Source: Picochlorum sp. SENEW3 (Eukaryota). From it: a stretch of DNA of 64,000 nt. The DNA lies in the NCBI GenBank assembly GCA_034226945.1, contig CP120457.1:124001-188000 (forward strand), in the 5' to 3' direction. The notes under the pieces are model-generated. The model saw only the letters and a list, made by a program, of their open reading frames with translations, was not told where the DNA came from and searched no databases. Below, in pieces: positions 17,823-49,794 of this stretch; position 1 is the stretch's first letter, and each line of letters starts with the position of its first letter. The position numbers were made by a program, and so were the translations under genes.

Positions 17823-18406
17823 TACATCCCCCCATGGAGTATTGCTTTTGATGGGCGCCTGCTATGCATCCCTTGCGTTGGGTACTTTAGCTCATTCGCG
17901 CCCCATCCTTGACAAGGTGAGGCCTTGCCCGACATGGAATAATTCCTATGTAAAACTGTTGCGATTTCGGTCGAACATTGGTCTATTGTATGAGTAGAGC
18001 CACCGTCTTCGACTCCGTTGCACTCACTACAATAAGATAGGGTGCGGTGTGACACGAACAGGAAGCCATACCGTGGAATAGAGTAGGATTTACGAATTGT
18101 ATTTCATAGTCAGGGTACCAGATACCTACATTTGCCCTTTTAGTACGCGTGGACACTGCGAGTCAGGGGGCAGGCTGTGAAGATAAGATAGAGGTGGCAG
18201 TACACCCCTAGAGAATGTGCTGTCTCGAATGAACATCGGCAACTATATACTTTCATTATTTCATTTATTGGGACACGCCTCGTACAGCTGAAGCGGCTCA
18301 GGCTCTGAGAAGTGAACAGATTTCATTCTTCTTTTTCTGAGTCGGAATAGTGGAAGATATTACGCTACAATTGTAGTGCAATTTTGATTTGATTTAATAG
18401 AAAGAC

Positions 18407-19918
18407 ATGTCTAGGCAAGAAGCAGGAGGGAGTGAAGGGACATTTTCGCCAGCTGGGTTGAAAGTGCTTGTTGTAGACGATGACCCCATGTGTCTCAAGG
18501 TTGTTTCTGCAATGCTGAAACGATGTAATTATGAAGTTGACACGGAATCGAATGGGCATCAGGCGTTGGATAAACTGAGGCAGATGCAGGAGAATGGGTG
18601 TCAGTTTGATCTGGTGTTGTCGGATGTGTACATGCCAGATATGGATGGGTTCAAGTTGTTGGAGAGCATTGGGTTGGAGCTCGAGGTGCCAGTCATCATG
18701 ATGTCGAGTGATAGTGACACAAATGTGGTGCTTCGAGGAGTGACGCATGGGGCAGTTGATTTTTTGATAAAACCAGTGAGGATTGAGGAGCTGAGAAATG
18801 TTTGGCAGCATGTTATTCGTCGGCGGAGTTCGCAGATGAGTCGCGGAGCTACTGCCGAGGAGTCTGGTGTTGAGCAAGATATTAACTCTCGGACGTCACA
18901 AGGAACGAAAAGGAAGGACGTGGAAGTTATTCGTGCAGAGCATGAGGGTGGATCAACGGGAAAGAAGCCTCGGGTTGTGTGGTCTGTTGAAATGCACCAG
19001 CAGTTTGTGTATGCTGTGAATACGCTTGGTATAGACAAGGCTGTTCCCAAACGAATTTTAGATTTGATGAATGTGGAAGGGCTGACGAGAGAAAATGTGG
19101 CATCTCATCTACAAAAGTATAGGTTGTACTTGAAGCGGGTTGAGGGTGTTGCAGGCAAAGGTAATGTTGCAGTGGTGAAAGGAGGTGTTCCGAGGAATGT
19201 CGATCGATTGAATGGGAAGCCCCCTCTTCAGAATAAAGTACCAAAGCAAAGCAAGTCATGTGGAACGAGCAGAGCTGAATCATCAGATGCAGAACGGAAG
19301 CTGAACACACTGCATGCCTCAGGGTCTAGCCCAAACCTTCAAGGAATCTCCTCCTCCCACTGGTCACAACCACACGGATATTATAACTTACACGGTCAAA
19401 TATATGGCAACTCGGTCAGAATGAATGCAACTGGTGCCCCACCAACGATGATGGGCTGGCAGAATCAGAATGGTGTCCCTATGGCTACACCAATTCAGTA
19501 TGCCAATGTGCCTAGCACGTCTGCGTTCTATCAGGGAAGTGGCCATATGTATCCGGCTCAGGTTCCACCAATCAACGGTCAGATGGGAGTAACGAACAAT
19601 AATAATGTGTTGCACTCAGCAATTGATAGCAGCCAGCGACCATCCTGCACTGAAGCACATGTCAATGGATCAACAAACGCGACTGGAAATGCACCTGGAT
19701 CTGACAATGAATTTGATACAGTTGTGAATAACAACACAAATGTGCATTCGAGCACAGATGATGCATCTCACAACAAGATTGCGACTGATATTCTGAGGTC
19801 TGGATCAAGTGGACTGGATGATGACGGGCTTCCAAACATTGCAGGCCTTGACAAAAATCATGACCCAGACGATGATGTCTTAGACATGTTTATCAAAGGA
19901 ATGGAAGGGGAAACTTGA
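18407..19918 (+). CDS. Type-B response regulator (receiver + GARP Myb-like domain)
   Basis: [17 protein letters not shown] (phospho-acceptor Asp), [20 protein letters not shown]...[13 protein letters not shown]. Confidence 0.95.
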
Positions 19919-20051: not shown

Positions 20052-20702
20052 TTATTTCCCCCTAAAACAACTACACAAGCGCGTCAGAAAACCCTCTGGT
20101 TCTTTTCGTACCCTCGTGAAACTAGATGACACCCCAGAAGGGTTGACATCATACGGAGGACTAGACTCATGAACCCACTGTCTCACTCGCGTCAGATTCT
20201 GATATCTACTATCAGGATCCTGTGCTTTCATAAATAATTGCAAATTAGCCTTACTTAACCTATCCGACTTTCTCTCCTTTCCATCTCCATCTCCCTGATC
20301 TCTAAACTTCAACTGATAACTTTCCAATTCCTTTGGGGCAGAATTCCCCCGTACCAACTGAGGATCTGATCGACTCTTCCTCCGCTCCATTCGTCGACTC
20401 ATTTTCTCTTGTCTCTCCTGCAACGCAGACAAATTCAACACGGGTACAGGACCAACACCAGCAGGCCCCACCTCCTCTTCTACTCTAGACATATTTTTCA
20501 TGCCTGCTCTTCCCTCGTCCTTCCCCGCACCATTCGGCGTCGTCTTTTCTAAACCCTCGACACCTCTTCTATCCCCTGTTTCGTGACGCTGATCATCAGT
20601 GACTGTATTTTCTAGAATAATTTCCTTCTCCTCCACCCGAAGTTCCAACTGAGGAGACTCTCCACCAGGACCACCTTTCACCTCGTTCAGATTCGATCCC
20701 AT
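20052..20702 (-). CDS. Hypothetical hydrophilic protein; an upstream exon is possible
   Basis: 216-aa ORF with protein-like composition, C-terminal FLTRLCSCFRGK; no family recognised. Confidence 0.55.
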   Translation of the reverse strand: MGSNLNEVKGGPGGESPQLELRVEEKEIILENTVTDDQRHETGDRRGVEGLEKTTPNGAGKDEGRAGMKNMSRVEEEVGPAGVGPVPVLNLSALQERQEKMSRRMERRKSRSDPQLVRGNSAPKELESYQLKFRDQGDGDGKERKSDRLSKANLQLFMKAQDPDSRYQNLTRVRQWVHESSPPYDVNPSGVSSSFTRVRKEPEGFLTRLCSCFRGK

Positions 20703-21272
20703 CCACCCCTATTGTGTTTGTATATCTATCCAAAAGACGTCTTTTTTCAGTCTTTTTTCACGTCGACGTGCACCGAACCCACAAAACTGCAGGGACGTCG
20801 CGGCGCAAGGTCTTCTCGTGCTCAAGCCTTGTCTTCAGTAAAACACCAATACAGGCGATCATTCATCCATGTAACACTATTTCATAGTTTTAGAGTGCCA
20901 GTCATAGAGAAAAAACGTGATACAGCTTTCGCTGTCAGTAATTGAAAGAATGCCAACGTCAACACCGACTATTCCTGCATCCTCGCTGCCTGCAGAGAAG
21001 AGTAGGTTACTTTTTATTCATCATTACAATAACGATGGGTTGTTGAAGCTGTGTACGATTCTACTCGAGTCATCCTACGGATGAGGATCTTTCGCCCGTA
21101 CTGAGTGGCAAGGAGGGGGGAGAGACTCACCTCCTTCATCGGATCCTACATGTCGCGTGTTGTTGTTACATGCTGAAAAATTACTAGCACAGAGAACTAG
21201 TGAAACAAAATTATTTTAGCCTGTGCTGCATTGTACTCACAACTGCGGTAATGATGAAAATGATAGCTATGT

Positions 21273-24174: not shown

Positions 24175-26212
24175 ATGATGGCATTTTCTTCAACATCCGT
24201 GGCCCATTGTCCTCCGCCATTTCCTAATCGTATTCAAGTATTGTTAGAGAAGATATTTAATGGCAAAGATGATGGCGATCAATGCAAGAGCTCAGGGCAT
24301 GGCCGTTCCTGTCAGACATGGGACATGTCGTGGACTAGGAATTCAAAAGGGAGCTGTGAGATGTGCGATGTATTCATCTCATGGAATAAAATCAACAGGA
24401 TCGATGGATAGGTGTGTGTGATGGAATGATGCCTGGTCGATGTGGAGAATTCAAAACCCTCCTACGAGAGCATTCAACCCTTGTGGTTGATTGGGGCTGC
24501 TATGCATCGGATCATGATTCTTATATATAACGCATTGCAATTTTGATGCAGGATTGGGGCACGTATGGGATCGATCAAAGGGGTTGTTCCTCAGGCGACA
24601 GCAGCTGCTGCAGTTGCTCAGCCAGAGGGGGCATCACCTCCGTGGCCAGGGGCCAAGATTGCACCTTTGATAGCATCCGTGTCGTTGGGTTTGGTGTTGA
24701 ATTATGTAGTGCCTACTCCGGAGGGTATTACGCAGCAAGGGTGGACGCTGTTGTCCATCTTTGTGTCTACAATTGCGGGGTTGGTGCTTGAGCCTCTTCC
24801 AGTGGGTGCCTGGGCTTTTCTGTCTGCGACAGTCGCCATTGCGACCAAGACGTTGAGCTTTACATCGGCATTCACTGCGTTTACGAATGATGTGATTTGG
24901 CTTATTGTGGTGTCCTTCTTTTTTGCCAAGGTAGGTTTTGTTGTTGGGACCTGCCATGAATGGAATGGAATGTTACATGTGTGTGAACGAATGCTGTGTA
25001 GGGATTTGAAAAGACTGGTTTAGGAGAGCGTGTCGCTCAGTTGTTTGTAAAGTTCTTCGGAAAGAGCACGCTTGGGTTGGCGTATGGACTTTCTTTTGCG
25101 GAAGTATTGATTGCTCCAGCCATGCCTTCTACCACTGCGAGAGCTGGTGGGATTTTCATGCCTATTATGAACTCCTTGTCGTTAAGTGCGGATTCCAAGC
25201 CAAGTATGTTGATGTATTGTGATAACAACCTGTCGATGTGACTCACGTGTTGTAATGTTCCTGTATTCTTCTTTGTGCAGATGATCCATCAAGGAAAAAG
25301 TTGGGGGCTTTTCTGGTGAACACGCAATTTCAGGGATCTGTGAATTCGTCAGCCATGTTTTTGACTGCAGCTGCCCAGAACTTGCTGTGTCTTAAAATTG
25401 CCACGGAAATGGGAGTCATCATTCCCTCTGCGTGGGTGACATGGTTCAAAGCTGCATTTGTCCCAGCAATTATCAGTTTGTTGCTGACGCCAATGATTAT
25501 GTACAAAATCTTTCCCCCAGAAATAAAATCGACACCTGAAGCTCCTGCTTTGGCAGAAAAGCGTTTAGAGAGTATGGGGCCAATGAGTCGAGATGAGAAG
25601 ATTATGCTCGGGACAATGGGAACAGCTGTTCTCCTGTGGGTGTGTGGGGATGCATTGGGAATCTCTGCCGTGACCACAGCCATGATTGGTCTCTCGGGGC
25701 TTTTGCTCTCAGGTGTGCTTACGTGGAGAGAATGCCTGACGTATCCTGCTGCGTGGGATACCCTGTTTTGGTTTGCCATCTTGGTGGGAATGTCTGGTCA
25801 GTTGAATTCTCTGGGAGTCATTTCTCATTTTGCAAATCAGGTCGGAACTCAATTGGCAGCTGCAAGTATGAGCTGGCCACAAGTATTTGTCATCCTTAAT
25901 GCAGCATACTTTGTGTTGCATTACATGTTTGCATCCCAGACAGCTCATGTGGGAGCATTGTATTCTGCCTTCTTGGCAATGAGTCTTTCAACTGGTGTCC
26001 CTGGAGTGCTTGCAGCACTGTCCTTGGGAGTTATGTCGAACCTGTTTGGTTCTCTGACGCATTATGGATCTGGTCAGGGTGCCGTGTACTATGGTGCCGG
26101 ATATTTGGATTTGAAAGAGGTGTTCAAATATGGAGGATTGATGGGAACCTTTAATTTCATCCTGTGGATGTTGATTGGATCTGTGTGGTGGAAATTCGTG
26201 GGCCTGTTTTAG
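24175..26212 (+). CDS. DIT2: Plastidic dicarboxylate transporter (DASS family, DiT2-type glutamate/malate translocator); 5' exons uncertain
   Basis: LEPLPVGAWA, PAMPSTTARAGGIFMP (DiT2-like), FLTAAAQNLLCLK, AWDTLFWF, FASQTAHVGALY, THYGSGQ. Confidence 0.88.
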
Positions 26213-26286
26213 ATGATATTGCAGTCTATACACAGGAAGAAAGAAAACTATACAGATATTATTATAATAATGTTGAACATGAAAAA

Positions 26287-27945
26287 CTACTTCTTCTCCT
26301 TCTTAGCCTTCTTTTCCTTCTTCTTCTTTTTCTTCTCCTTCTTCTCAGATGTATCTGGTGCCTCACTTTCAGCCTTGCGCTTTTTCTTGTCCTTCTTTTG
26401 CTTTTTGCTAGGGGTCTCAGCATCTGCAGCAGCAGATCCTCCTCCCAGAGCTGTCACAACCTCGTGCATCACATCAGCATTCTTTCGTGGAGCAACACCC
26501 TCCTCATAGAATCTAAGTCTCTCTTCCACCTGCTCCTTCATTTTCTCTCCAAACGCTGGTGTACTCTCATCCATAAAGGCATCAATTCGAGATGCGATAG
26601 AACACTTGTTTGCAAGATATCGTGAAATTCTTCCCTTATTCCTCTGCTTTGCACGACCAATAAAGCTGGAATGGAAGATGAGCCCATACTTTGGTGTATT
26701 TCCTTTTGTTTTCAACGCTCTAAACAAAGCCTTCTCAGCTCCCAAGATTTGCACCGTCGAGGCTGGATATTTGGCCAAATTCGTAAGAGACCCTGCATGC
26801 GATATCAGCCTTGCAGCAACAAGCTCCCCAATAAGAGCTCCCAGGTTCGGGGCCACGGCCTGCATTTTATCCTGAAGATAGGTGAACAATTTATGTCTAT
26901 ACTCTGCCAAAGAAATAACCCTCTTGGCAAAGGCTTCGATATTAATCAGATCAATTGGAGATATATCCTGACCCATGGAGGCCTTGGCAGCATCCACCAC
27001 CTCCTTTGCCTTCTCCTCATCACCCAAAATTTCCTTAATAGCAGGAATGGACTCATCACTCAGAGTAGACTTGTCCTTGATGAACAAGGTCAATTTGGCA
27101 TAGAGGTAATTGTCTGTGACAATCTTGACAAGCTCTGGGAAATGCCACGAGTACCACTCTCTGACTCTCATCACAAACGTATTCACATCTTTATCCAAGG
27201 TATCCAAGAGAGCAATCGCCTGAATAATCATATTATCAGACTTGTTTACGTTGAATTTCACTTTTGCTCTGGAGTACGAGTGCGCCAAACCAAGCTGAGC
27301 CCTTGACATATCAGAACCGCTCAACCCCTTGATGAACGTCGTAAAGTGGTATCTGACCCCTCTGATCAACTCTCCAATCTTCTCATTACACTCACAGGGA
27401 ATCTTTGTCTCTTCCTGAATAGCAGACCCAAGCTTTGCTTCTGACACACCCAAGGTAAACTTGGCTTTCGAAGAACTCTTGACTTTCGGCAAGTTGGTCG
27501 TCAGAAAATTCACCAAATCCTCAGTCACCTATATCAACGACATCACGTCATATAAGAGTGTATGGAGACAAAGCACTTGGAGCCGGCACATTGCCGTCCA
27601 TCAGAAAAACCAATACACAACAGCATCGCCCATGTCACCATCACATCCATACATGAAATCAAATATCAATGATATTCTTAGCCCACCCTCCCATACTCAA
27701 GCACACATCCGCCGGGTGTCTGCTGCATGCATTACCTGTGACTCGGAAACGGCATTAATCTGCTCCAATGCATTCGCTGCGGACACGAATGGCTTGAAAG
27801 CTGTCAATTTAACACTTTTGCCAAATCGTGACACATCGATGATGCTTTGTTGCATTTCATCCACCGAGTTGCCAATCTCATCGAAACTCGAGACTTCGAA
27901 CAGGCCATAGCCTGATGCGCTTTCGTACAACAAAAACGTCGTCAT
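26287..27945 (-). CDS. NOP56: Box C/D snoRNP protein Nop56 (intron 27529-27735)
   Basis: [68 protein letters not shown] tail. Confidence 0.97.
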
Positions 27946-28108
27946 TGTTGTTCAATTTTACAACAATAAAAAAGTATGTGCCGCAGGGGATGGGTATCCT
28001 GCATGTATACCCTGTGTGCCATCCTGACATCCATCCAGGTGCAGCCAGAGCCAGATTGGTGTTCCTCACTGCAGTGACACGAATTCCACCGAGAAAAGGA
28101 TACGTATT

Positions 28109-29296
28109 CTACGAAATATTCTTTGATCTACTCTTCTTATGCCCAACGGATATGGATTCAGCGTTATCGAGAATGTCCTCAAACGCTGGTGGTCTCTTTG
28201 CATGCCTCACATCTCTCTGTTCTGCTGCCACCTCTCCTCGACGAGGCTCATCCTCAGCCTGAGGCGATTTCAAGTCCTCCATAGGCACCCTCCATAAATC
28301 TTGCGTTGCTGGAGATTTTTCTTTTCTCTCCCATATCACCCCTCCCTCTGAATCAGGACTCCCCCCTGTAGTAACAGTAGTATACATGGTGTATGGATCC
28401 GGAGGAATACTAGCTGTTTCATTCCCGTTGCGCTGTTCTCCGGCATCTTCTTTCTTCTCGCTTTCTATCTTTCTTGGAAAAGATTCTGAGGAACGTTTTG
28501 TTGAAGCAGCAGAGCCACTCAGCGTAGATATCAACATATACATGAGAGCTGTACCCAGCACAAGACCACCTGTTCCCATGGCAATCAATGCAACATTTTT
28601 GGAATCTACATTCTGCAACAAGGCTGAAACCCCACCACCTTCTTCAACTCTATCAACACGCCGATTAGTAGCTAGGCCATCCTCTCGCTCTCCCAACAAT
28701 GCGGCAGTTTCATCCTCCTCTTCACCACCACCGCCACGAACAATCTCAGAAGAAGCAGGAGGAGATGCCCCTGCATCCCTGCTCTCCACCACAACCATGT
28801 TACTCTTCTTTTCTTCTATATTGCTATTATTGCTGCTCCGTTGAACATCATCATCTTTATTAGTAGTAGTAGAATCATTATTCCCCACCAACCCCTGAGG
28901 AAACTCCTTCAACCCAACACCTTGCTGCTCAAACAACTTTGCCACATCCTCATCAGACATGGTCGACAGCATATCCCTATATCGCTCCACAAGCATCTTC
29001 TCAGCAACCCATCGAGGTATCGGAACAGTCCTCTCCTGCTGACCAATAGACTGGATGACCAACATGTGTCCATCCAGCCATGCACCATGTGGTTCTTGTA
29101 TTCCATGAAATGCTCCTATTCGACGCCTACAGACTATGAAAGATCCACGTCGACACCATGGTGCTCTCACATTATGAAGGATGTACGAAGAAGAAGGCTC
29201 TAGAGTTCTTGCAGAAGAATTGCGTCCATGCCGAAGAGAACTTGTGACTGATACCCTATACTGCATCCGTATCGAATGCAATGCTTTTATTTCCAT
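28109..29296 (-). CDS. Hypothetical protein with transit-peptide-like N-terminus and one transmembrane segment
   Basis: 395-aa intronless ORF; hydrophobic VALIAMGTGGLVLGTALMYMLISTL; no family recognised. Confidence 0.6.
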   Translation of the reverse strand: MEIKALHSIRMQYRVSVTSSLRHGRNSSARTLEPSSSYILHNVRAPWCRRGSFIVCRRRIGAFHGIQEPHGAWLDGHMLVIQSIGQQERTVPIPRWVAEKMLVERYRDMLSTMSDEDVAKLFEQQGVGLKEFPQGLVGNNDSTTTNKDDDVQRSSNNSNIEEKKSNMVVVESRDAGASPPASSEIVRGGGGEEEDETAALLGEREDGLATNRRVDRVEEGGGVSALLQNVDSKNVALIAMGTGGLVLGTALMYMLISTLSGSAASTKRSSESFPRKIESEKKEDAGEQRNGNETASIPPDPYTMYTTVTTGGSPDSEGGVIWERKEKSPATQDLWRVPMEDLKSPQAEDEPRRGEVAAEQRDVRHAKRPPAFEDILDNAESISVGHKKSRSKNIS

Positions 29297-29404
29297 TTAA
29301 AAAGTACACAATGGTGGTACACGCGTGTGCGTAGGTCTCAGAGAAGGAAAGAAGCACCCTATTTTCCAACAATCGAGGCAAGGCTGTCTTAAAAAATTCT
29401 CCCG

Positions 29405-29486
29405 TATCGCGTCATGTCGCGTTATAGCCGGTCATCAAAAGAATCTATGAATGCGGCAAAAGATTCCCAAACTAGGCTATATAAAT
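29405..29486 (+). promoter_or_regulatory. GAPDH upstream region with motifs shared with the arsJ upstream region
   Basis: TATCGCGTCATG 29405-29416, GGCAAAAGATTCCC 29455-29468, TATA-like CTATATAAAT 29477-29486. Confidence 0.65.
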
Positions 29487-29524
29487 TAAACTTTTGGTTT
29501 ACGAATACCCGATAGTGATTGAAA

Positions 29525-30751
29525 ATGGCTCCTGTTCCATGTTTACTCAATGGCTTTGGTCGCATTGGTATGCCTTTTTGTTGGTGTTATTCAAGGAACG
29601 AAGGACGATTCACATTGGTGTGATTGTTCCTACTACGATGCAGGAAGACTTGCCATGCGCATTGCATACGATTCCAAGGATACATCAGGGATTCAGGTTG
29701 TGCATATTAATGATTTGGCGAGTGTGGAGAGTTCTGCATACCTGCTGCAGTATGACTCTGTCCACGGGACCTGGGAGCATGATGTCCAGGTGGATGACAA
29801 GGGTAATATTGTGATTACTGATGCTCATACCAAAGAGAAGCAGGTTATTACGTACTCGAGGCATACAAGTCCAAAGGATTTGGTTCTGTCCGAGTGCAAT
29901 GGGGCGTCCATGGTGTTGGAAGGCACTGGGGTGTTTTTGACGCGGGATGCACTCCAGCCCTATTTTGATAATGGAGCATCAAAGGTGGTTGTGACTGCTC
30001 CGGTCAAGGATGCGGCAAACCCAGTGACGAATATTGTGTATGGAGTGAACCATGCCGTGTATGATCCGGCCAAGGATTCCATCGTGACTGCTGCCTCGTG
30101 CACCACCAACTGCCTGGCTCCAGTGGTCAAAGTAATTCAGGAGAAGTTGACGATTCGTCATGGATGCATCACGACAGTGCATGATGTGACCAATACTCAG
30201 AGTATTTTAGACTGTCCGAATACGAAGAAGAGCGATCTGAGGAGAGCGAGGTCTGCATTGGTGAACCTGGCCCCGACCAGTACTGGCAGTGCCACTGCCA
30301 TTGCGCTCATTTTCCCAGAGCTCAAAGGCAAGCTGAATGGACTTGCGATCCGAGTTCCGCTCACGAATTCTAGTATTACGGATTGCGTCTTCGAGGTGGA
30401 GAAGGAGACGACGGCGGAAGAGGTGAATGCGCTGTTGAAGGAGGCAGCTGAAGGGGAGCTCAAGGGTATTCTTGGGTATGAAACCAAGCCACTCGTGTCT
30501 ACCGACTACATCAATGACCCTCGCTCAGGCATCGTTGATGCTTTAAGCACCCAAGTTATTGATAAGACATTGGTGAAAATATATGTATGGGTACGTTGGT
30601 GGCTCTCGTGTAGTAGTAGTAGTATGTTGAATTGTTGTCATGGTACCCGTGATGATGATGCGTGTCTGTCGTGCAGTATGACAATGAGTTTGGATACTCT
30701 CACCGTTTTGTTGATGTGGCCAGCATGGTTGCCGCATCCATCAAGCAGTAA
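29525..30751 (+). CDS. Glyceraldehyde-3-phosphate dehydrogenase, ArsJ-associated (bacterial gap3-like) subtype; exons 29525-29567, 29644-30590, 30677-30751
   Basis: Spliced N-terminus MAPVPCLLNGFGRIGRLAMR; subtype-like motifs IVTAASCTTNCLAPVVKVI, HDVTNTQSILD, TGSATAIALIFPELKGKLNG.A.RVPL, TDCVFEVE, PLVSTDY..DPRS; ends WYDNEFGYSHR; no transit peptide. Confidence 0.93.
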
Positions 30752-30918
30752 TTATAACTGCTCATATATATGTTTTGTTCGAGTAGAATGTAACACGCAG
30801 TATGATTATTATTACTACTATGCTCCACTGCTGTTGTACTGGCTGCTCTTGACAATAGCAGTCAAGATATCTTGACCATCGCGATGGTCAGTGCCGCACT
30901 ATGCTGCACATAGTGTCA

Positions 30919-31000
30919 TATCGCGTCATGGCAAAAGATTCCCTCGGAGAATTTGTTACTTGTGCGGCGTACTCGCCTTGTTTATATAGTCTATAAAATT
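30919..31000 (+). promoter_or_regulatory. arsJ upstream region with the same two motifs fused
   Basis: TATCGCGTCATG 30919-30930 overlapping GGCAAAAGATTCCC 30930-30943; TATA-like CTATAAAATT 30991-31000. Confidence 0.65.
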
Positions 31001-31054
31001 CTAAATAATTATTTTATTGGTATTTGGGTGTATTGTGTCCGCGCATTTGCAAGT

Positions 31055-32811
31055 ATGGAGGGTCGAACTGACGCGGATGGTAAAGTCGGGGAAGAGGCTG
31101 CGTCTCAAGAGGTGATGGATCCATCAGTGGCTGAACTGGACACTGCCATGACGACTGCGAGCAATGGCGATGCAACGATTGGGGCAAAGCCATCTCGAGG
31201 CTTTGGGCATTATAAAAGGGCGATGAAAGAAAAGTATGGGGCACTGTACCCGTTTGCCATTATATCCATCACCTATCTGTTGTTTACTGTGACTGATGGG
31301 GCTGTGAGGATGATTGTGCTCTTGCACGCATATAATAAAGGATTTACTGCCATGGATGTGGCTATTATGTTTAGTTTCTACGAGTTTGCTGGTGTTGTGA
31401 CCAACTTAGTTGCTGGAATGTTGGGGGCGCGGTGGGGAATCAAGACAACATTGTTGACTGGATTGACGGTTCAGTTGGTTGCCTTTGGTATGCTGTTTGG
31501 ATGGCAGAACGACTGGTCAACAGTGGCGGCCATCGTCTATGTTACCGTGTCTCAGACGATGAGTGGTGTCGCAAAGGATTTGACGAAATTGGGGGGCAAG
31601 ACGGTGACCAAACTAGTTACTCCTGAAGGAAAGAACTCATCCTTGTTCAAACTTGTGTCTTTCATCACGGGGTGGAAGAACTCTCTCAAGGGTGTTGGAT
31701 ATTTTCTCGGTGCAGCATTAGTGAGTGTGAATTACTATCTTGCATTGGGTGTATTATGCGGGTTTATCCTCGCCGCCTACCCATTCGCTCTATTTGGTCT
31801 GTCGAATGAGCTTGGCAGAGCACGAAAGGAAAATGTCAAATTCTCTCAGCTGTTCAAGTACGTTGTTGCTGTTTTTTTCTTTTTCTCCGTGGTATCTATG
31901 TCTATGGAAAGATCATGAGTATTTATGTATATATTACGATACCTTTATGTTGCAGGAATAAGTATAACATCAACATTTTGTCCTTGTCTCGAGTGTTTTT
32001 ATTTGGGTCACGAGATTTGTGGTTTGAAGTTCCACTTCCATTCTTTTTGAGAAATCCCGAGTCGGGAATCGGATGGAGTAGAACACTAACAGGAGCTTTT
32101 CTGGCAATATTCATCATCGTGTATGGCCAGATGCAAAGTTGGACACCCCAACTTGCCCTCAAGCCCCTCAGGCAGTCACCCCCAGACAAGTATGCTGCCA
32201 TTTGGTGGTGTGCCTCCTTGTCTGTGCCGACCGCCATTCTCGGAGGATTACTTTTAGGAAGCGATGTATTTGGTCCAAATGCAAGCTCTGGGTCAGCAAT
32301 ATCAGCATTGACCGTACTCCTGTATTCATTCTGCATCTTTTTTGCCATTAATTCTGCCATCCATTCATACTTGATTGTCCGGTATGCTGATGGAGACAAA
32401 GTCGCCATGCAAGTTGGTGTATACTACGCATCGAATGCGCTTGGAAGATTATTAGGAACCTTATTCTCTGGAGTTTTATACACATATGTGGGAAGCACTG
32501 TTGTGGATGGCTTTGGGGCATGTGTCATTGCATCATGCCTGGTGTCCTTGGTGTCCACATTTATCGATAACTTTTTGCGAGAAGATCAGGTAGGAGCCAC
32601 ATTCTTCGGACCATTGAACAGATGCTTCCCTTGCTGGATTCCAGCACCACAAGCTGTGCTGGATATTGAGGCAAAGGGAGTAGATGATTCAGCACAGCAG
32701 ACTGAAGGAATGACACCATGTGACAAGACCATGGATGGAGAGCAATCGATAGAAAACGTCAACGGGGCTGTAGATGCACCATCAGAGATGGCACCGCCGT
32801 CAAAGTGCTAG
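31055..32811 (+). CDS. arsJ: ArsJ-family organoarsenical efflux MFS transporter (intron 31858-31955)
   Basis: FTVTDGAVRM.VLL, FSFYEFAGVVTNL.AG.LGAR, SGVAKDLTK, TGWKNSLKGVGYFLG, INILSLSRVFLFGSRDLWF.V.LP.FL, FAINSAIHSYLIV.YA.GDKVA..VG.YY..NA.GRL.GT. Confidence 0.9.
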
Positions 32812-33185
32812 CACTTTAGTATTTACACGTATATTTCATAGCTGATGATGATGATGATACGTACCTGTCAGTATGAATTTCAAGTAGCTCTCGGAAACCA
32901 CCGGTATCTGTCTGGTATGATTTCTGTATCCAAGAAGAATAGTTCGAGAATAAGCATCATCACAAAATAGAAGAGAGACGTGCACAGATTGAGACGAGAG
33001 AAGAGAGAGCGCATAGCAGCAATACATGAATGAATGGAGAAGCAGCACAACAAGAAGTAAAAGGTCAAGAGCAATATATACATTGCATACCCACTTTCAA
33101 TGCGAATTGGCTGTTTCATTCGTTATTATTCTGCTCCTGGTACCTCAACTGCAATGTTACACAAAGAACACAATACCAACACTCT

Positions 33186-34667
33186 CTACATCTCTGGTGG
33201 CTTTTCCCACTGGGTGACCCCAGTCACAGTATTATAGTAATATGGACGATTTTGATCATCTCTGTATTCTATCCATTGTCCTCCTGCAGCTGGTGCTGCC
33301 ATATTTGGGTCCTGGGCAGCTTGCTGCTGATAGTCATAGCCTCCTGCTGCTGGTGCAGCTCCAGCACCATAGTCTCCATATCCACCATACCCACCGTATC
33401 CTCCACCTCCATATCCCGATCCGTACTGCCCACCATATCCACCGTACCCGCCATACCCACCATACTGCTGCTGCTGTCCTCCATACCCCCCACCACTATA
33501 TGGGTTGGGAGCAAATGGATCCCCACCATTCATAATCTCTGATATCAAAGATTTAGCCTGATCAACAGTCGACTGCTGCCCTGAAATTGATATTTTGCAG
33601 GGGTCATCACTCTGATCAATCTGAACAGTGGCACCAGACACCTTTTGAATATTCTTGATCGTCTCCCCTCCCCTGCCAATAATCCTTCCAATCACCATTT
33701 TCGGAGCAAGCACTAAATCCGTTTCTCCAATCCCATATTTTTGACACACACGCAGAATCACAGACTGCGCCGACCCTGGCTCTCCATGAATCAATTCATT
33801 CACCATCAACTCGGCCCTCTCAACTGCCTCTGGCTTCCCCGTGATGATCACCTGCCTCGGTACTTCGGGAGGAAAATCTTGATTCACAGAAATACGAGCA
33901 TCACTCGCAGTCTGCAACGCTCTAATCGTCTCCCCACCACGCCCAATAATCTTTCCCACCAAACTTGGCGGACACTCCACAGTCTTGGAAGAATCCTGAG
34001 AATCAGTCGTGAGAATCGCCGCCTTTGCCCGAGCAACATTTTCCTGAGTCTTTCCGGTAATAGTTATCTTCCTTTCAGTACCCTGACTCGCATGATCGAT
34101 CTGAATATGGGTATCCGTCGACTGCTGCATTTGGCGAATCGTCTCACCTCCACGCCCAATCAACCTCCCTACCAGCGCTGAAGGCACCATGAGTGTCTCT
34201 GTAATTCCATCCTGTGTATCATGGTATTGCGCATCGTCTGGAACCCTTTTGCTGTCTGGCTCGTCAAAAGCATCACCGTCTCGGGGCCGCTTGTTCGTTT
34301 GGTCCGCATGCTCAGCTCCAGAACTAATCGGATATTCCTGTTGCTGATGTTTATTCATCAGTTTGGCTGCCACAGCAGCTGCTGCAGCCGCAGCATCTGC
34401 CATTTGTTGAGCCTTGTCTTCTTCAGCAGGTGGCTGTTGCTTTTCTTCTGCCTCCTCTTCTTTTGCATCGTCTTCTCCCTGTCCGGTCTTGCCCTCATTC
34501 TGTTCTTCTTCTTGTTGTTGAACGTCTTCTTTGGTCTCGTCGCCAGTACGCTCCTCCTTCTCCTCCTCCTCTTGCTGCTGCTGTTCTCCCTCCACCTCCT
34601 GCGCTGTCACCTCCTCCTCCTCCGGCTCCTGCTTTTTCCCCGTCCTCTTACGTCGCGTTGCTACCAT
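33186..34667 (-). CDS. KH-domain RNA-binding protein (three KH domains, GY-rich region, C-terminal WW domain; FUBP/KSRP-like)
   Basis: Three G.IIGRGGETI loops; WIEYRDDQNRPYYYNTVTGVTQWEKP. Confidence 0.92.
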   Translation of the reverse strand: MVATRRKRTGKKQEPEEEEVTAQEVEGEQQQQEEEEKEERTGDETKEDVQQQEEEQNEGKTGQGEDDAKEEEAEEKQQPPAEEDKAQQMADAAAAAAAVAAKLMNKHQQQEYPISSGAEHADQTNKRPRDGDAFDEPDSKRVPDDAQYHDTQDGITETLMVPSALVGRLIGRGGETIRQMQQSTDTHIQIDHASQGTERKITITGKTQENVARAKAAILTTDSQDSSKTVECPPSLVGKIIGRGGETIRALQTASDARISVNQDFPPEVPRQVIITGKPEAVERAELMVNELIHGEPGSAQSVILRVCQKYGIGETDLVLAPKMVIGRIIGRGGETIKNIQKVSGATVQIDQSDDPCKISISGQQSTVDQAKSLISEIMNGGDPFAPNPYSGGGYGGQQQQYGGYGGYGGYGGQYGSGYGGGGYGGYGGYGDYGAGAAPAAGGYDYQQQAAQDPNMAAPAAGGQWIEYRDDQNRPYYYNTVTGVTQWEKPPEM

Positions 34668-34820
34668 ACTAATTATTGGTTAATTGTAATGACTTCGCTG
34701 AAGGAGACTGCCACGCATGGCTTGATCATGGCAATTCTGTTGTCTGCTCATATTGCCCATCAAAGACATCCTTTGATCGGAGACACAACTTCTTTCGTCG
34801 CGAGGTCCTGAATTCGAAAA

Positions 34821-35631
34821 ATGATGCATCAAATCCCTTGGTATGCCTGTACTGGTGTGGACAGACACGCAACCAATCGCACATAAATTTCTTTACTGGT
34901 ATCAAAATCATTGTACGCATAGGGCGGTATGCATCAGAATGCCAAGTTCAATCTGGAGAGAAACTGGCCCACATGTGGTGTTCCACAAACCTTTCCATAA
35001 CCACCACGCCATACCCAGGAATCACGCCATCTGTACTCTCAAAAGAACTACAGGTGCGTCGTCGAGTTCCTGGCGTGCGAGGAGTCGACGCTGGCACAAC
35101 GAAGAATGGGAGCGTAGTTTGTTTGTTGACCCTACTACTACTCCTCAGGACAGCAACGAGGTGATCGTGACCGTGTTTGGCAAGGACGGGGCCATCTCTA
35201 CCATCCCACCCAACTACGTGAGTCCATCGTCTTTGATGGCATCTGATATTGGGTTGAAGCTGGAAGGCGGGGACACAGCTCCCTCCGGGATGCCAACAGC
35301 AGAAGAGCAAGGGCTGTGCCTAGGATCTGTCTTTAGCATCACTGCGACGAATGGCTTCGATGTATCGAGAAGAATGAATGTGTTTGGTTTCTGTCAAAGT
35401 TTAGATTATTTGGCTGAGAATATTCATGTTGCCATACGGTCGAGGGGAGGGGAGATTTCTCATGTCAAGAGAAAGGTGTGCAATGATTCGCTGAGTGAAT
35501 CCATCACCATGTCCCTGTGTATTCCATTGCTGTGGGGTGTTCCGCCCGAGTTTGACAGGGTGACGCGAGGCATCGAAAATGGAGGTGGCATCATTCACAA
35601 AGTCTATAGGGAATGGTTCATCATCCCATGA
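34821..35631 (+). CDS. Conserved green-lineage protein of unknown function, likely plastid-targeted (one intron near the 5' end)
   Basis: ATG 34821, TG|GTATGC...TAG intron restores the frame; C-terminal GGE...PLLWGVPP...GGGIIHKVY..W resembles an uncharacterised plant family. Confidence 0.7.
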
Positions 35632-35744
35632 AATGTATATTATTAAGAGTCTGTACAGCCTGTACTGGCAATGGTTGAATGTATCATCATTTTGATTTCC
35701 CTTGTAATCTTTAATGTTGTATCTCTCTATCCAAGACTTTTGAA

Positions 35745-37190
35745 ATGTTTGATATGAATGATATGAAACTTGTTGCGGTACTTGTCCTATCTGTTGTAGC
35801 GCATGTTTCGAGCAACGAAACGCTGGAGCTGGTTCGTGGGTCAGCCGTGACGAGTCCTGCTCTTGAATTGATCGTGCCGGATGGGTCTACTTTTGATCCA
35901 TCAAATATTCGAGGCACATACATCATACAAGACAAGTCCAAGGGTGTGACCTGGTTGCTTAGATTAAGGGAAGGCAAAGCCAAGGCTGTGTCGCTTCCGT
36001 TTCCTGGAGGAAATCACGAGAGTGCAGTGTCTGGAGATGGTCGAACGGCGTTGACGACGCACTATGATACTGCATGGCAAGGAGATGGAGAAGGTGGGGG
36101 CATTCCCGGCAGTGATGTGGTCGCAATCGATGTGTTGGATGGGTCTTCAAGTGTGCTACTGCAAGCTAAGAGCAACCCGCTGCAAGGGTCCATGCCACAT
36201 GGCGTCTTGGTTTTAGATAACGGTGATATTATAGTGACGGCACAGTTGGATAATAGCGTAGTTCGATTTCCTTCGTATAGAGCCGGTGAGATGACGCCAC
36301 AAGTGTACAATCTGACAGAGACTGGATGTATCACGCCTCACTTGTTGAGAGCTGTTCCTCAAAGTACTCTGATTGTGACAGGGTGTCGAGCGACGAACCC
36401 TGGTGTATCTGATACATATCCGGGTAAAGTAGCAATAATTGGCGTAGAGAGTGGGGAGGCGGCGGCGTTGGATGCTGGTCTTGGAGCAGAGGGGATTGCT
36501 GTGACTGGAAAAGGTGACGTGTGGGTGGCTGGGCAGCGCGATAATACAATCTCTGTATATGGGTTTGAAGATGGAACTGCGAAATCAGTTGAAACCTTCA
36601 AAAAGCAAGCGGACCTCAATGTATCGGGCATTGTAAAGCCTCTACGTCTGGCATATGATTATGTTCATAATAGGGTTGGGGTTGCAGCATTGAGCACAAA
36701 TGCATCCGAGCCAAATTTCTACGTGTTTGATGCGAACACGTTTGACCTGATTTTAAATTCAACGATTGAGAGTGAAAAGAGAGGCAGGGTGAACATGGAA
36801 GGATTGATATTTGATGGGAATGGATATTACTTTTCAGGAGGATTTGATAACCAAGCAGTAGTCTTTATCAATGCATTGACTGGACAAGTGGATGCTGAGA
36901 TTGACATGCCGAGGTGTTCCATGCCAGATGTATTTAATGTACCCACATTTGTTTCCACTGAACAAGCTCAGAATGAGAACCTGACTGGATCCAACAATTG
37001 GAGCGGTGGGTTTTGCAATGCCTCCATGAGAAATCCAAATGACACAAGGTTCCTCACAATGGACGGATTTGAATGGAGTCCTATAGAATCTACGCTCTGG
37101 ACAATGAATATCCCAGAAGGTAGTTCCAGTGCATCTTTTCTTACGAGTCATACTGCACTCATGGTGCTCTTCTTTGTATTATCCATCTGA
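35745..37190 (+). CDS. Secreted, probably GPI-anchored beta-propeller protein (YVTN/YncE-like)
   Basis: Signal peptide; blade motifs HESAVSGDG, PHGVLV, AEGIAVT..GDVWVA...DNTISV, PLRLAYD; many N-x-S/T sites; SSSA followed by hydrophobic tail. Confidence 0.75.
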   Translation: MFDMNDMKLVAVLVLSVVAHVSSNETLELVRGSAVTSPALELIVPDGSTFDPSNIRGTYIIQDKSKGVTWLLRLREGKAKAVSLPFPGGNHESAVSGDGRTALTTHYDTAWQGDGEGGGIPGSDVVAIDVLDGSSSVLLQAKSNPLQGSMPHGVLVLDNGDIIVTAQLDNSVVRFPSYRAGEMTPQVYNLTETGCITPHLLRAVPQSTLIVTGCRATNPGVSDTYPGKVAIIGVESGEAAALDAGLGAEGIAVTGKGDVWVAGQRDNTISVYGFEDGTAKSVETFKKQADLNVSGIVKPLRLAYDYVHNRVGVAALSTNASEPNFYVFDANTFDLILNSTIESEKRGRVNMEGLIFDGNGYYFSGGFDNQAVVFINALTGQVDAEIDMPRCSMPDVFNVPTFVSTEQAQNENLTGSNNWSGGFCNASMRNPNDTRFLTMDGFEWSPIESTLWTMNIPEGSSSASFLTSHTALMVLFFVLSI

Positions 37191-37493
37191 GCAAATGGAA
37201 GTACACATGATGAATACATTTGTGTAAAAATCTTCGGCCAGTCGACCCGGCACATCTAGTGCAATATCAAGACATTCGTGGAACTCAATATGAGCATATA
37301 TAACATGACAAGACCTGATGGCCATGCAGCAGGAGATGTGGGCCCACACTGGATGTATAAAATTCCCTCTTGTTCTCAATCCCCTTTACGGATATACCAG
37401 TCGTATGTACCATTCAAATCATGTTATAGTTATAATCTATGTATCTATAGAAGCATTGTGATACAGTGATGACTGACTGGATACAAGATACGA

Positions 37494-39218
37494 ATGTCCT
37501 CGGTACTCAACCAACAACGACCCTGTGGAACCAAGGAAGGGATAGAGAATACTTCAGACAAGGGATATGCACTCCTAGATTTACCAGACGATGTACTAGG
37601 GCGGATATTGTCATCATTGGATGAAGAGGAGCTCAAGCACTCTGTGCCCTTGTGGAGTGGCACGTGTCGTAGACTTTCTCGGTTGTTGATCAGGTCTATT
37701 GAGTTTCGGTATCCAGACTCTGTGTCAGTGTCGAAAAAGATTGCTTTGTTTCCCTGTGCGGAGACTGTTGCTATTCATGGGGTTGATGGATATTCCATGG
37801 GAAGCATCCTGAAGGATGTGCATGTTGGGTTGGTGAGGCTTGAGAGGTTGGTTTTGAAAGGGCTTTGTATCGACCAGGATGCGATGGAGACTCTCACGGT
37901 TTTCAAAGGCAGATTGCGTGAGATTGAGTTTGTCAATGTGGACTTTGACGCGAGTGTTAAAGGTCTGCATGGTGTGGTGGGGGATGAGCTCTGTGTTTTG
38001 AGAATGCAAGATTGTCGGGGTGTGTCGTGTGAGGACTTGCGAGTGGTGTTGAGTGGTGCAAAGAATTTGGAAGAATTGTCTCTGGAAGGCATGCAGTTGT
38101 GTGATGATGTGTTTCTTGGTGTGCATGAAAGATTGTCCTTTTTGAATGTGTCATCCAGCTGTTCATTCACGTGGAGAGGTATTTGTCACCTGCGAACGTG
38201 CAGGCGGCTGAAGCGGCTTGTGCTATCTGCGTGTTATAATATTGATGATGAGGTGTGTAAAGCGATCAAGGAGGCGGTGCCTCAGGTGGAGGAGCTTGGT
38301 CTTTTTGAGTGTGGAGAGCATCTTGGGAGGCAAGGGCTTGAGCATCTTTCCTGTTTGGTTCATTTGAAGACGCTTGATTTTGGATATGTATCCGGTTGTT
38401 TTGAATCGAAAGATATAGAGGGTATGGTGTCCAAGTTGAAGAAATTGAAGGTTTTGAAGCTTTCGGGCACATCATATGTGGATAACACTGTCCTCCAGGC
38501 CTGTGTAGACCACTTGCCAGTGCTTGAGAAATTGGATATCAGTGAATGTCAAGAGATTACGCGAGACGGCTTTATGGTTCTAAGAAACTTTAAAATGCTG
38601 AAAGATTTAAATCTTGGATGGAATGCTAGGGTCACAGATGATGTGTTGGAATACCTGCCAAGAACACTGCATCGATTGGATGTATCGTTTTGCTCGAGGC
38701 TGTCGGGTGCAGGGCTATGTCATGTGGCGAAATTGAAGAATTTGAATGATTTATGTTTGCGACGGTGTCGAAAGATTGGAAACAGGGGAATAGAGGTTTT
38801 GACATCTGGGTGCACACGTTTGTCAAAATTGGATATTTCATTCACACAGATTCACGCAAAAGCGCTTTGTGGTTTACAACGGCTCCCTGCCCTCAGGTAT
38901 CTTGACATGAGTGACTGCAAGTATGCGACAACGGTCATGGGAATGGCATCGCTGTGTTTGGTCAAGTCGTTGGAGGAGTTGAATCTATCAATGAATCCAC
39001 GGCTGGATGATGGGTGCCTCCATGCAATCAGCTTTCACCCTGGGCTCCGGGTGCTGTCAATTCGGCATTGCCCTGAGGTGTCTTGCTACGGTGTTTTAGA
39101 ATGTCGTCGACTGCGGCGACTGAAAAAACTCGATATCTCTGGCTGTTCTGCACGAGTTTCAAGTGCCTCCATTTGTACAGTAGCATCCAAATTGAATGCT
39201 CATATTGTGTATCAATAA
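37494..39218 (+). CDS. F-box/LRR-repeat protein
   Basis: LLDLPDDVLGRILSSL F-box; repeated L..LDIS.C..I.D cysteine-containing LRRs. Confidence 0.9.
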   Translation: MSSVLNQQRPCGTKEGIENTSDKGYALLDLPDDVLGRILSSLDEEELKHSVPLWSGTCRRLSRLLIRSIEFRYPDSVSVSKKIALFPCAETVAIHGVDGYSMGSILKDVHVGLVRLERLVLKGLCIDQDAMETLTVFKGRLREIEFVNVDFDASVKGLHGVVGDELCVLRMQDCRGVSCEDLRVVLSGAKNLEELSLEGMQLCDDVFLGVHERLSFLNVSSSCSFTWRGICHLRTCRRLKRLVLSACYNIDDEVCKAIKEAVPQVEELGLFECGEHLGRQGLEHLSCLVHLKTLDFGYVSGCFESKDIEGMVSKLKKLKVLKLSGTSYVDNTVLQACVDHLPVLEKLDISECQEITRDGFMVLRNFKMLKDLNLGWNARVTDDVLEYLPRTLHRLDVSFCSRLSGAGLCHVAKLKNLNDLCLRRCRKIGNRGIEVLTSGCTRLSKLDISFTQIHAKALCGLQRLPALRYLDMSDCKYATTVMGMASLCLVKSLEELNLSMNPRLDDGCLHAISFHPGLRVLSIRHCPEVSCYGVLECRRLRRLKKLDISGCSARVSSASICTVASKLNAHIVYQ

Positions 39219-49257: not shown

Positions 49258-49794
49258 TATTTCAGATCATTATTGTACCCGTGAGGCGGCAATATGACAC
49301 ATGTAACACCTCGACCGATTTCTATTCCTTAAATGAATATTGCGAAATGTCCCGAATCCAAAACTTGCTGACATCTGGTAGCATGCGCAGGCATCAATCC
49401 AGAAAAGATTCCAAATTTTATATCAAATTCATTAGTAGCATTCTGTGATACCTTCATCTCGAGCCGGAAGAGCATTGCAAGGCCGTTGAATTTTCAAAGC
49501 GGACAGTTTTGTTACCGGAAGGGCCGAACAACTGATTTGACACTCTAAAGGTACGTAGATGATACAATTAGTGCAAATTATTGATATATATTTGGTTGTT
49601 TCTGAAATAAAGTGGGTTTGGGACGATACATCGGGGGTACGGGATAACACGGTTGTTGGCAACTGGACAGTTGCCACAGCAGTGGATCTGGTATGAACGT
49701 GGTGTGATTGATGCCTTGTTTGTACTATATAGAGTGTAGAGTCTAGATTCGATCAAGGCATAGAGAGTCTGCTTGATTCAGGGAATTGCGTCGA

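What the first reader, a model, noticed from the sequence alone, without database searches (positions are those of the whole stretch)
29405..30943. Two exact motifs shared by the GAPDH and arsJ upstream regions: operon converted to regulon
Seen: TATCGCGTCATG (12 nt) at 29405-29416 and 30919-30930, and GGCAAAAGATTCCC (14 nt) at 29455-29468 and 30930-30943. The order is the same in both, each set is followed by a TATA-like box, and each lies within ~140 nt of its ATG. A reverse-oriented AGATTC core (GAATCT) is at 29441-29446. Two exact matches this long in two short intergenic spaces are unlikely by chance. Known: AGATTC/GAATC cores are bound by GARP-family factors (NIGT1/HHO; type-B ARRs bind AGATT), and CGTCA/TGACG is a bZIP half-site. 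Inference: a dedicated arsenate- or phosphate-responsive module, possibly made by promoter duplication when polycistronic expression was lost. I know of no description of it. A shorter AAAAGATTCC also occurs at 49403-49412.
Basis: partly seen in the sequence, partly recalled or inferred. Interest (0 to 1): 0.78.

Follow-up and report, generated by a model that had tools for sequence, protein, structure and literature searches.

The report
Shared promoter motif of GAPDH–ArsJ pair
Two neighbouring arsenate-detoxification genes of a small-genome alga, originally a bacterial operon, each carry the same short DNA motif in front of their own promoter, and its 8-base core is kept in a related species, so it is probably a switch that turns both genes on together.

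Summary
A single 12- or 14-mer repeat is at chance level in this window, but two collinear ones are not: this is the only such chain in the window, and 0 of 150 simulated windows had one. In the arsJ upstream region the two motifs form one 25-mer; in the GAPDH upstream region 38 nt separate them.

The genes are an intron-bearing ArsJ-associated GAPDH and ArsJ. This neighbourhood is already published for green algae.

A syntenic metagenome contig from a related species (about 78% protein identity) has otherwise unalignable promoters. Both still carry AAGATTCC, in the same orientation and at a similar distance from the ATG. It is the only k-mer of 6 nt or more shared by all four promoters (6 of 20,000 simulations). 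The 12-mer is kept only in the closest relative.

I read AAGATTCC as a conserved cis-regulatory site that co-regulates the two genes. The factor is probably a GARP/Myb-type protein and the signal possibly phosphate or arsenate status, but both are inferences. No RNA data, no genome-wide scan and no binding data were available.

This is a modest, testable finding.

The parts
29405..29416 (+). A-box copy 1 (TATCGCGTCATG) in the divergent promoter between an unknown minus-strand gene and GAPDH
   Evidence: Exact match. Contains CGTCA. Not shared by all four promoters.
29437..29446 (+). B'-box AAAAGAATCT, a degenerate or inverted GAWTC site inside the 38-nt spacer
   Evidence: MAFFT places the L002 GAPDH B-box opposite this site. 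The strain variant A>G at 29440 lies here.
29455..29468 (+). B-box copy 1 (GGCAAAAGATTCCC); conserved core AAGATTCC at 29460-29467, 65 nt before the GAPDH ATG
29478..29485 (+). TATA-like box of the GAPDH promoter
   Evidence: TATATA/TATAAA hits.
29525..30751 (+). ArsJ-associated GAPDH gene; exons 29525-29567, 29644-30590, 30677-30751; GT-AG introns
   Evidence: Gene model. NF033735 424 bits on exon 2 alone. Gp_dh_N and Gp_dh_C domains.
30789..30793 (+). TGTAA, a possible green-algal polyadenylation signal of GAPDH
   Evidence: Position. The role is inferred from recalled knowledge of chlorophyte poly(A) signals, not tested.
30856..30910 (.). Hypervariable spacer, including the perfect 18-nt palindrome at 30873-30890
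   Evidence: Dense substitutions and indels in runs X9 and X12. Run X11 replaces 30861-30909 with 17 other letters. Palindrome checked.
30918..30953 (+). Conserved 36-nt block holding the contiguous 25-mer (30919-30943: A-box plus B-box; core AAGATTCC at 30935-30942, 120 nt before the arsJ ATG) and the following TCGGAGAATT
   Evidence: 35 of 36 positions identical to L001, against 74 of 101 in the rest of the promoter. The core is invariant across the three species.
30983..30997 (+). TATA-like boxes of the arsJ promoter
31055..32811 (+). arsJ gene (MFS organoarsenical efflux permease); exons 31055-31857 and 31956-32811
   Evidence: Gene model. NF033734 194 and 168 bits on the two exons.

Best explanation
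The shared sequence is a proximal-promoter cis-regulatory element. GAPDH and arsJ derive from a bacterial gapdh-arsJ unit but now have their own introns, and each sits behind its own TATA-like promoter. Each promoter carries the element upstream of the TATA-like box, in the same orientation.

The part under long-term selection is the 8-bp core AAGATTCC. I propose that one sequence-specific factor binds this core in both promoters, so that the enzyme making 1-arseno-3-phosphoglycerate and the pump exporting it are switched together. The factor is most likely a GARP/Myb-related protein, because the core contains the GATTC/AGATT recognition sequence. The signal is most likely phosphate shortage and/or arsenate.

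The extra exact identity in this lineage (the 12-mer and the flanks of the 14-mer) is best read as a more recent copying or conversion of a promoter patch between the two promoters, 1.5 kb apart, or as a lineage-specific composite site.

Shown: non-chance repetition; conservation of the core in both promoters across species; position and orientation. Inferred: that it binds a factor, which factor, which signal, and that the two genes are transcribed separately.
For: (1) The collinear pair is unique in the window, and 0 of 150 simulated windows have one.

(2) L002 is syntenic with window 24738-39146 and has about 78% identical GAPDH and ArsJ. It has AAGATTCC on the + strand at 4443, 78 nt before the GAPDH ATG, and at 5843, 128 nt before the arsJ ATG. 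The window distances are 65 and 120 nt; L001 has 119 nt. L002's other two hits are in coding sequence.

(3) In an unbiased test, the only k-mers of 6 nt or more shared on the same strand by all four promoters derive from AAGATTCC. A common 8-mer arises in 6 of 20,000 Markov-1 simulations. Starting from the window motifs, the same 8-mer falls in both L002 promoters in 217 of 200,000 simulations.

(4) Against L001 (about 88% ArsJ identity), the block 30918-30953 is 35 of 36 identical, against 74 of 101 for the rest of the promoter.

(5) The core is not a general promoter word. The window has 5 sites (2.2 expected): two are these, one is intergenic at 49405, and two lie in ORFs.

(6) On the factor family: NIGT1 GARP proteins bind GAATC/GATTC (PMC7660924, passages). 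The window encodes a receiver+GARP protein whose GARP domain matches the Arabidopsis ARR1 DNA-binding domain at E=6e-31.

(7) On the signal: Cre07.g354150, named as the Chlamydomonas ArsJ gene in PMC7826186, rises 3.0-, 3.9- and 2.7-fold in a PSR1-overexpressing line. It correlates 0.96 with PSR1 and belongs to Venn class ACD, which also includes the published P-stress set (PMC10413257, Table 2 and passages). In the cyanobacterium Nodularia, the ArsJ-associated GAPDH and arsJ rise under P limitation (PMC9846622, table passage).
Against: There is no expression, TSS or binding evidence. All four runs laid were DNA contigs.

No genome was held, so neither a regulon nor enrichment could be tested.

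Conservation rests on three related taxa. Only one of them, L002, is diverged enough to be informative and has both promoters.

Pairwise local alignment of the orthologous promoters is not above shuffles: 241 and 350 of 1000 shuffles score at least as high. The B-box is merely the top hit in each.

The A-box is not conserved in L002.

Six more distant ArsJ loci (L003, L005, L006, L011, L013, L014) have no AAGATTC or GAATCTT within up to 900 nt upstream of the first exon hit.

The canonical PHR1/PSR1-type site, GNATATNC (consensus recalled), is absent from all 5 promoter regions. The phosphate link therefore cannot run through a textbook P1BS.

Exact identity over 25 nt is more than a typical binding site needs.
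Confidence: 0.55

Rival explanations
1. The identity is a neutral remnant of a recent promoter-patch duplication or gene conversion between the two promoters and has no regulatory role.
For: The flanks are unalignable while 12+14 nt are identical. The 12-mer and the flanks of the 14-mer are not conserved in L002. The GAPDH copy is interrupted by 38 nt that resemble a degenerate second copy.
Against: A neutral copy would not leave the same 8-mer in both promoters of L002, whose intergenic DNA is otherwise diverged to chance level. The arsJ copy is 24 of 25 identical in L001, while the surrounding promoter is 73% identical.
Confidence: 0.15
2. It is a functional co-regulatory element read by a non-GARP factor. 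Candidates are a bZIP on CGTCA in the A-box or a Dof-type factor on AAAG. Alternatively the signal is unrelated to P or As.
For: CGTCA is present in 4 of 5 promoter regions. AAAAG precedes the core in 4 of 5 instances.
Against: CGTCA and AAAG are both missing next to the core in the L002 arsJ promoter, which reads CATGTAAGATTCCC. Only AAGATTCC is common to all four promoters.
Confidence: 0.15
3. It is a fragment of a dispersed repeat or mobile element that landed in both intergenic regions.
For: The L001 contig begins exactly at the motif, as assemblies often break at repeats. No genome was available to count copies.
Against: There are only two copies in 64 kb. There are no terminal repeats or extended similarity. 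Orthologous, position-conserved copies in L002 fit a promoter element, not insertions. The contig break is equally well explained by the hypervariable spacer just upstream.
Confidence: 0.05
4. It is an RNA-level element in the 5' leaders of both mRNAs, acting on translation or stability.
For: The TSS is not mapped. Same-strand orientation in all five instances is also what an RNA element would show.
Against: The motif lies upstream of the TATA-like boxes. No Rfam match at E up to 1. Folding is no better than shuffles, with z of -0.20 and -0.55.
Confidence: 0.05
5. It is coincidence.
For: Single 12- and 14-mers recur 202 times in the window.
Against: 0 of 150 simulated windows have a collinear pair. 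6 of 20,000 simulations give a four-promoter 8-mer.
Confidence: 0.02

Closest known systems
GAPDH3-ArsJ(-PGK) arsenic-detoxification gene neighbourhood of green algae (Foflonker & Blaby-Haas 2020, PMC7826186; passages read)
   Same: An adjacent, same-strand, intron-bearing bacterial-type GAPDH and ArsJ. The authors suggest the two were acquired together from a bacterium.
   Different: No PGK-like gene was found beside the pair among the ORFs I scanned. In the passages I read, the paper does not treat promoters or cis-motifs of this neighbourhood. The shared AAGATTCC element is what this report adds.
GARP-family binding sites: NIGT1/HHO GAATC/GATTC pairs (PMC7660924, passages); type-B ARR AGAT[T/C] core
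   Same: The core contains GATTC and AGATT. Two of four promoters have a second, inverted GAWTC within 25 nt. NIGT1 targets are nutrient (N/P) genes.
   Different: No binding was shown here. NIGT1 is described in that paper as plant-specific. The conserved word is longer (AAGATTCC), and a partner half-site is not consistently present.
P1BS element of PHR1/PSR1 phosphate-starvation regulators
   Same: A Myb/GARP-related factor controls P-starvation genes. The Chlamydomonas ArsJ orthologue follows PSR1 (PMC10413257).
   Different: GNATATNC (consensus recalled) is absent from all 5 promoter regions examined.
Bacterial ars operons carrying gapdh-arsJ (Chen et al. 2016, as cited in PMC7826186; Nodularia locus in PMC9846622)
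   Same: Same two proteins, same functional coupling, and P-limitation responsiveness in Nodularia.
   Different: In bacteria there is one transcript under ArsR-type control. Here there are two eukaryotic genes with introns and apparently separate promoters.

Membership tests
ArsJ-associated GAPDH + ArsJ module | Proteins match the curated families NF033735 and NF033734 | tested here: met
   NF033735 gives 424 bits on GAPDH exon 2 alone (cut-off 450 for a whole protein). NF033734 gives 194 and 168 bits on the two arsJ exons (cut-off 400). Each is the best family hit. Exons were scored separately, so whole-protein scores were not obtained.
ArsJ-associated GAPDH + ArsJ module | The genes are adjacent, on the same strand, with GAPDH first | tested here: met
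   GAPDH is at 29525-30751 and arsJ at 31055-32811, both on the + strand. L002 has the same arrangement.
GARP (G2-like / type-B RR / NIGT1) binding site | Contains the GAATC/GATTC or AGAT[T/C] core | tested here: met
   GATTC and AGATT are present in all 5 promoter regions at the conserved core.
GARP (G2-like / type-B RR / NIGT1) binding site | A GARP protein of the organism binds it | not testable with these tools
   Only the existence of one GARP protein is shown: the type-B response regulator at 18401-19918.
GARP (G2-like / type-B RR / NIGT1) binding site | Paired inverted half-sites, as for the NIGT1 dimer (GATTC-Nx-GAATC) | tested here: inconclusive
   A second GAWTC lies within 25 nt in 2 of 4 promoters: window GAPDH at 29441 and L002 arsJ at 5873. 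The orientations are opposite in the two cases.
P1BS (PHR1/PSR1 site) | GNATATNC present in the promoter | tested here: not met
   0 hits in 5 promoter regions. The consensus is recalled.
bZIP/CRE half-site | CGTCA/TGACG conserved next to the core | tested here: inconclusive
   Present in 4 of 5 promoter regions and absent from L002 arsJ. The distance to the core varies.
Dispersed repeat / mobile element | Many copies, extended similarity, terminal repeats | tested here: inconclusive
   Two copies in 64 kb and no extended similarity. No genome was held for a full count.
Known structured RNA | Rfam match or above-background folding | tested here: not met
   0 matches at E up to 1. z-scores of -0.20 and -0.55.

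The most novel reading that the evidence does not exclude
AAGATTCC is the recognition site of a phosphate- or arsenate-responsive GARP factor, conceivably the type-B response regulator encoded 10 kb upstream. On this reading the site arose de novo in this algal lineage and re-coupled the two halves of a horizontally acquired bacterial operon into a small eukaryotic regulon. Binding-site turnover and patch copying between the two promoters would still be visible in the sequence.
Probability: 0.15. Interest if true: 0.55.

Novelty: new member of a known kind. Interest (0 to 1): 0.35.

Why it matters
When a bacterial operon enters a eukaryote, its genes must each gain a promoter and still be expressed together. 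Concrete examples that show the cis-element doing this are few. Here the candidate element is short and conserved, and it sits in a compact genome, so a reporter or DAP-seq experiment could test it directly. If it responds to phosphate or arsenate, it would also be a handle on how small marine and brackish algae link arsenate detoxification to phosphate scarcity. If it does not, this is simply one more promoter motif.

Tried and rejected

RNA evidence: the one read-laying run used four runs that all turned out to be DNA contigs. They have no spliced joints, and contigs run through intron 1. There is therefore no TSS or expression information. None of the 40 listed substitution rows or 12 listed indel rows falls inside the motifs. 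However, 139 and 40 further rows were not shown, so I do not claim invariance among strains.

Diatom reading: I first assumed a diatom and looked for the PtPSR recognition motif. The original paper is not held. The citing papers and passages I read give no sequence, and a motif I recalled was found in no paper. I dropped this line when the window turned out to encode a plant-type type-B response regulator and the gene pair matched the published green-algal neighbourhood.

Other attempts that gave nothing useful:
- Gapped local alignment of the two window promoters scored 29.5, against a shuffle maximum of 39.5, so it was not informative.
- Orthologous promoter alignments were not above shuffles. 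My by-eye collinear alignment of A-box-like blocks between the window and L002 is therefore not claimed.
- The protein atlas returned only bacterial MFS clusters for ArsJ exon 1.
- The atlas gave nothing usable for the divergent neighbour gene.
- Rfam and folding were negative.
- The search of earlier findings returned nothing.

Full report
OBSERVATION. The 12-mer TATCGCGTCATG lies at 29405-29416 and 30919-30930. The 14-mer GGCAAAAGATTCCC lies at 29455-29468 and 30930-30943. In the arsJ upstream region the two overlap by one G and form a single 25-mer, 30919-30943. In the GAPDH upstream region 38 nt separate them. By eye that spacer looks like a degenerate second copy (TCGCGT..GTCATcAAAAGAaTC). 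The GAATCT at 29441-29446, the AAAAGATTCC at 49403-49412 and the TATA-like boxes are all as stated.

A single repeat of this length means little. The window has 202 non-low-complexity exact direct repeats of 12 nt or more. Two collinear repeats within 100 nt are another matter: the window has exactly one such chain, this one, and 0 of 150 order-3 Markov windows had any.

GENES AND ORGANISM. GAPDH has exons 29525-29567, 29644-30590 and 30677-30751. arsJ has exons 31055-31857 and 31956-32811. Both have GT-AG introns. Their best NCBIfam families are the ArsJ-associated GAPDH (NF033735, 424 bits on exon 2) and ArsJ (NF033734, 194 and 168 bits on the two exons).

The window is gene-dense. It encodes, among others, a receiver+GARP type-B response regulator at 18401-19918, whose GARP domain matches the Arabidopsis ARR1 DNA-binding domain at E=6e-31. 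Together with the published green-algal GAPDH3-ArsJ neighbourhood (PMC7826186, passages), this points to a compact-genome green alga. The genus is not established. My initial guess of a diatom was wrong.

RELATED LOCI. One metagenome scan with ArsJ exon 1 returned 17 loci.
- L001 (about 88% ArsJ identity) begins exactly at the motif. It carries the 25-mer with one base deleted.
- L002 is syntenic with window 24738-39146 and has GAPDH and ArsJ about 78% identical. Its intergenic DNA has diverged to the point that the longest words shared with the window (8-10 nt) are no longer than those between non-orthologous regions. Local alignments are not above shuffles.
- Even so, L002 has AAGATTCC on the gene strand 78 nt before the GAPDH ATG and 128 nt before the arsJ ATG. 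The corresponding distances are 65 and 120 nt in the window and 119 nt in L001.
- L002's other two copies lie in coding sequence. One of them is orthologous to the window's copy in the Nop gene.

TESTS. A shared 8-mer appears in 6 of 20,000 simulations. Against L001, the block 30918-30953 is 35 of 36 identical, while the remaining promoter is 74 of 101 identical.

WHAT IS NOT CONSERVED. The 12-mer is kept in L001 but not in L002. CGTCA occurs in 4 of 5 promoter regions. Six more distant ArsJ loci have no AAGATTC or GAATCTT within up to 900 nt upstream of the first exon hit. These loci are GC-rich or intron-rich: L003, L005, L006, L011, L013, L014. The element is therefore a feature of this narrow lineage, not of algal ArsJ genes in general.

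STRAINS. Four runs holding 0.49-0.61 of the stretch's words were laid, and all proved to be DNA. They show a hypervariable spacer at 30856-30910 directly upstream of the 25-mer. It has dense changes in X9 and X12, and X11 replaces 30861-30909 with 17 other letters. The spacer includes a perfect 18-nt palindrome at 30873-30890, which is therefore not conserved. Listed variants near the GAPDH copy fall at 29403, 29440 and 29449, outside the two exact motifs. The table was truncated, so I do not claim the motifs are invariant.

ANATOMY. In all five instances the core lies on the gene strand. In the four that have a TATA[AT]A match it lies 11-79 nt upstream of that match. L002 GAPDH has no such match, only an AT-rich TATA-like stretch seen by eye. 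A TGTAA follows the GAPDH stop at 30789. This fits two transcription units, with GAPDH ending before the spacer, but that is inferred and not shown.

WHICH FACTOR, WHICH SIGNAL. AAGATTCC contains GATTC. That is the NIGT1 GARP site, which NIGT1 binds as a dimer on paired sites (PMC7660924, passages). It also contains AGATT, the type-B ARR core (recalled). A type-B response regulator is encoded 10 kb away, but proximity is not evidence of regulation. The P1BS consensus (recalled) is absent from all five promoter regions.

The signal has only indirect support. The Chlamydomonas ArsJ gene Cre07.g354150 (identified as ArsJ in PMC7826186) is listed as MFT22 among P-transport genes. It rises 3.0-, 3.9- and 2.7-fold in a PSR1-overexpressing line, correlates 0.96 with PSR1, and belongs to a class that overlaps the published P-stress set (PMC10413257, Table 2 and passages). 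In Nodularia the same two genes rise under P limitation (PMC9846622, table passage).

RIVALS. A purely neutral recent copy cannot explain the L002 result. It may, however, explain the surplus identity in this lineage. Chance, a structured RNA and a dispersed repeat are each disfavoured, though the repeat hypothesis needs a genome to close. A non-GARP reader of the site remains open.

WHAT IS KNOWN. The gene pair and its probable bacterial origin as a unit are published (PMC7826186). My searches were 'arsJ'+'diatom', 'Picochlorum'+'horizontal gene transfer'+'arsen', the three Chlamydomonas gene ids and 'ArsJ'+'alga' (25 of 26 papers listed by title and abstract start). None of the listings or passages I read describes a shared cis-element for these genes. 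Subscription papers and supplements were not seen.

VERDICT. This is a real, conserved, probably regulatory 8-bp core shared by the promoters of two ex-operon genes. The factor and the signal are hypotheses.

Noticed in passing
window 18401-19918 (+): An intact type-B response regulator. It has a receiver domain with the DD, D and K residues, plus a GARP domain about 84% identical to the Arabidopsis ARR1 DNA-binding domain (E=6e-31 to PDB 8xas). It is a candidate reader of AGATT-type sites, but nothing links it to the motif other than being in the same window.
   Followed up: partly
window 30873-30890: A perfect 18-nt palindrome, TGACCATCGCGATGGTCA, in the GAPDH-arsJ spacer. It lies inside a stretch (30856-30910) that is rewritten or replaced in other strains (runs X9, X11, X12).
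   Followed up: partly
L002 5808-5850: A 10-nt unit, CATGTAACGC, is repeated three times in tandem and runs directly into the conserved core (CATGTAAGATTCC). Each unit contains TGTAA.
   Followed up: no
window 20187-20201 (+): TCGCGTCAGATTCTG is an A-box-like TCGCGTCA fused directly to GATTCT. It lies about 270 nt downstream of the response-regulator stop, inside an unannotated minus-strand ORF (20052-20708, no Pfam hit).
   Followed up: no
window 49403-49412 (+): A third intergenic AAAAGATTCC, followed by AAATTTTATA. It lies between a PAP-fibrillin gene (minus strand) and a 1,3-beta-glucan synthase gene (plus strand, ATG near 49796). Further GATTC words lie at 49743-49780. No orthologous sequence was available to test conservation.
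   Followed up: partly
L005-L017: Intron-rich eukaryotic ArsJ homologues, several with exons spread over several kb, occur on many metagenome contigs. L006 has a GAPDH fragment on the opposite strand downstream. ArsJ is therefore widespread in eukaryotes beyond this lineage.
   Followed up: no
window 28109-29296 (-): The gene divergent from GAPDH shares the motif-bearing intergenic region. It has no Pfam family and no usable atlas hit, and is weakly conserved in L002. The atlas record starts at residue 11, an ATG at 29266. It could be a third gene under the same element.
   Followed up: partly
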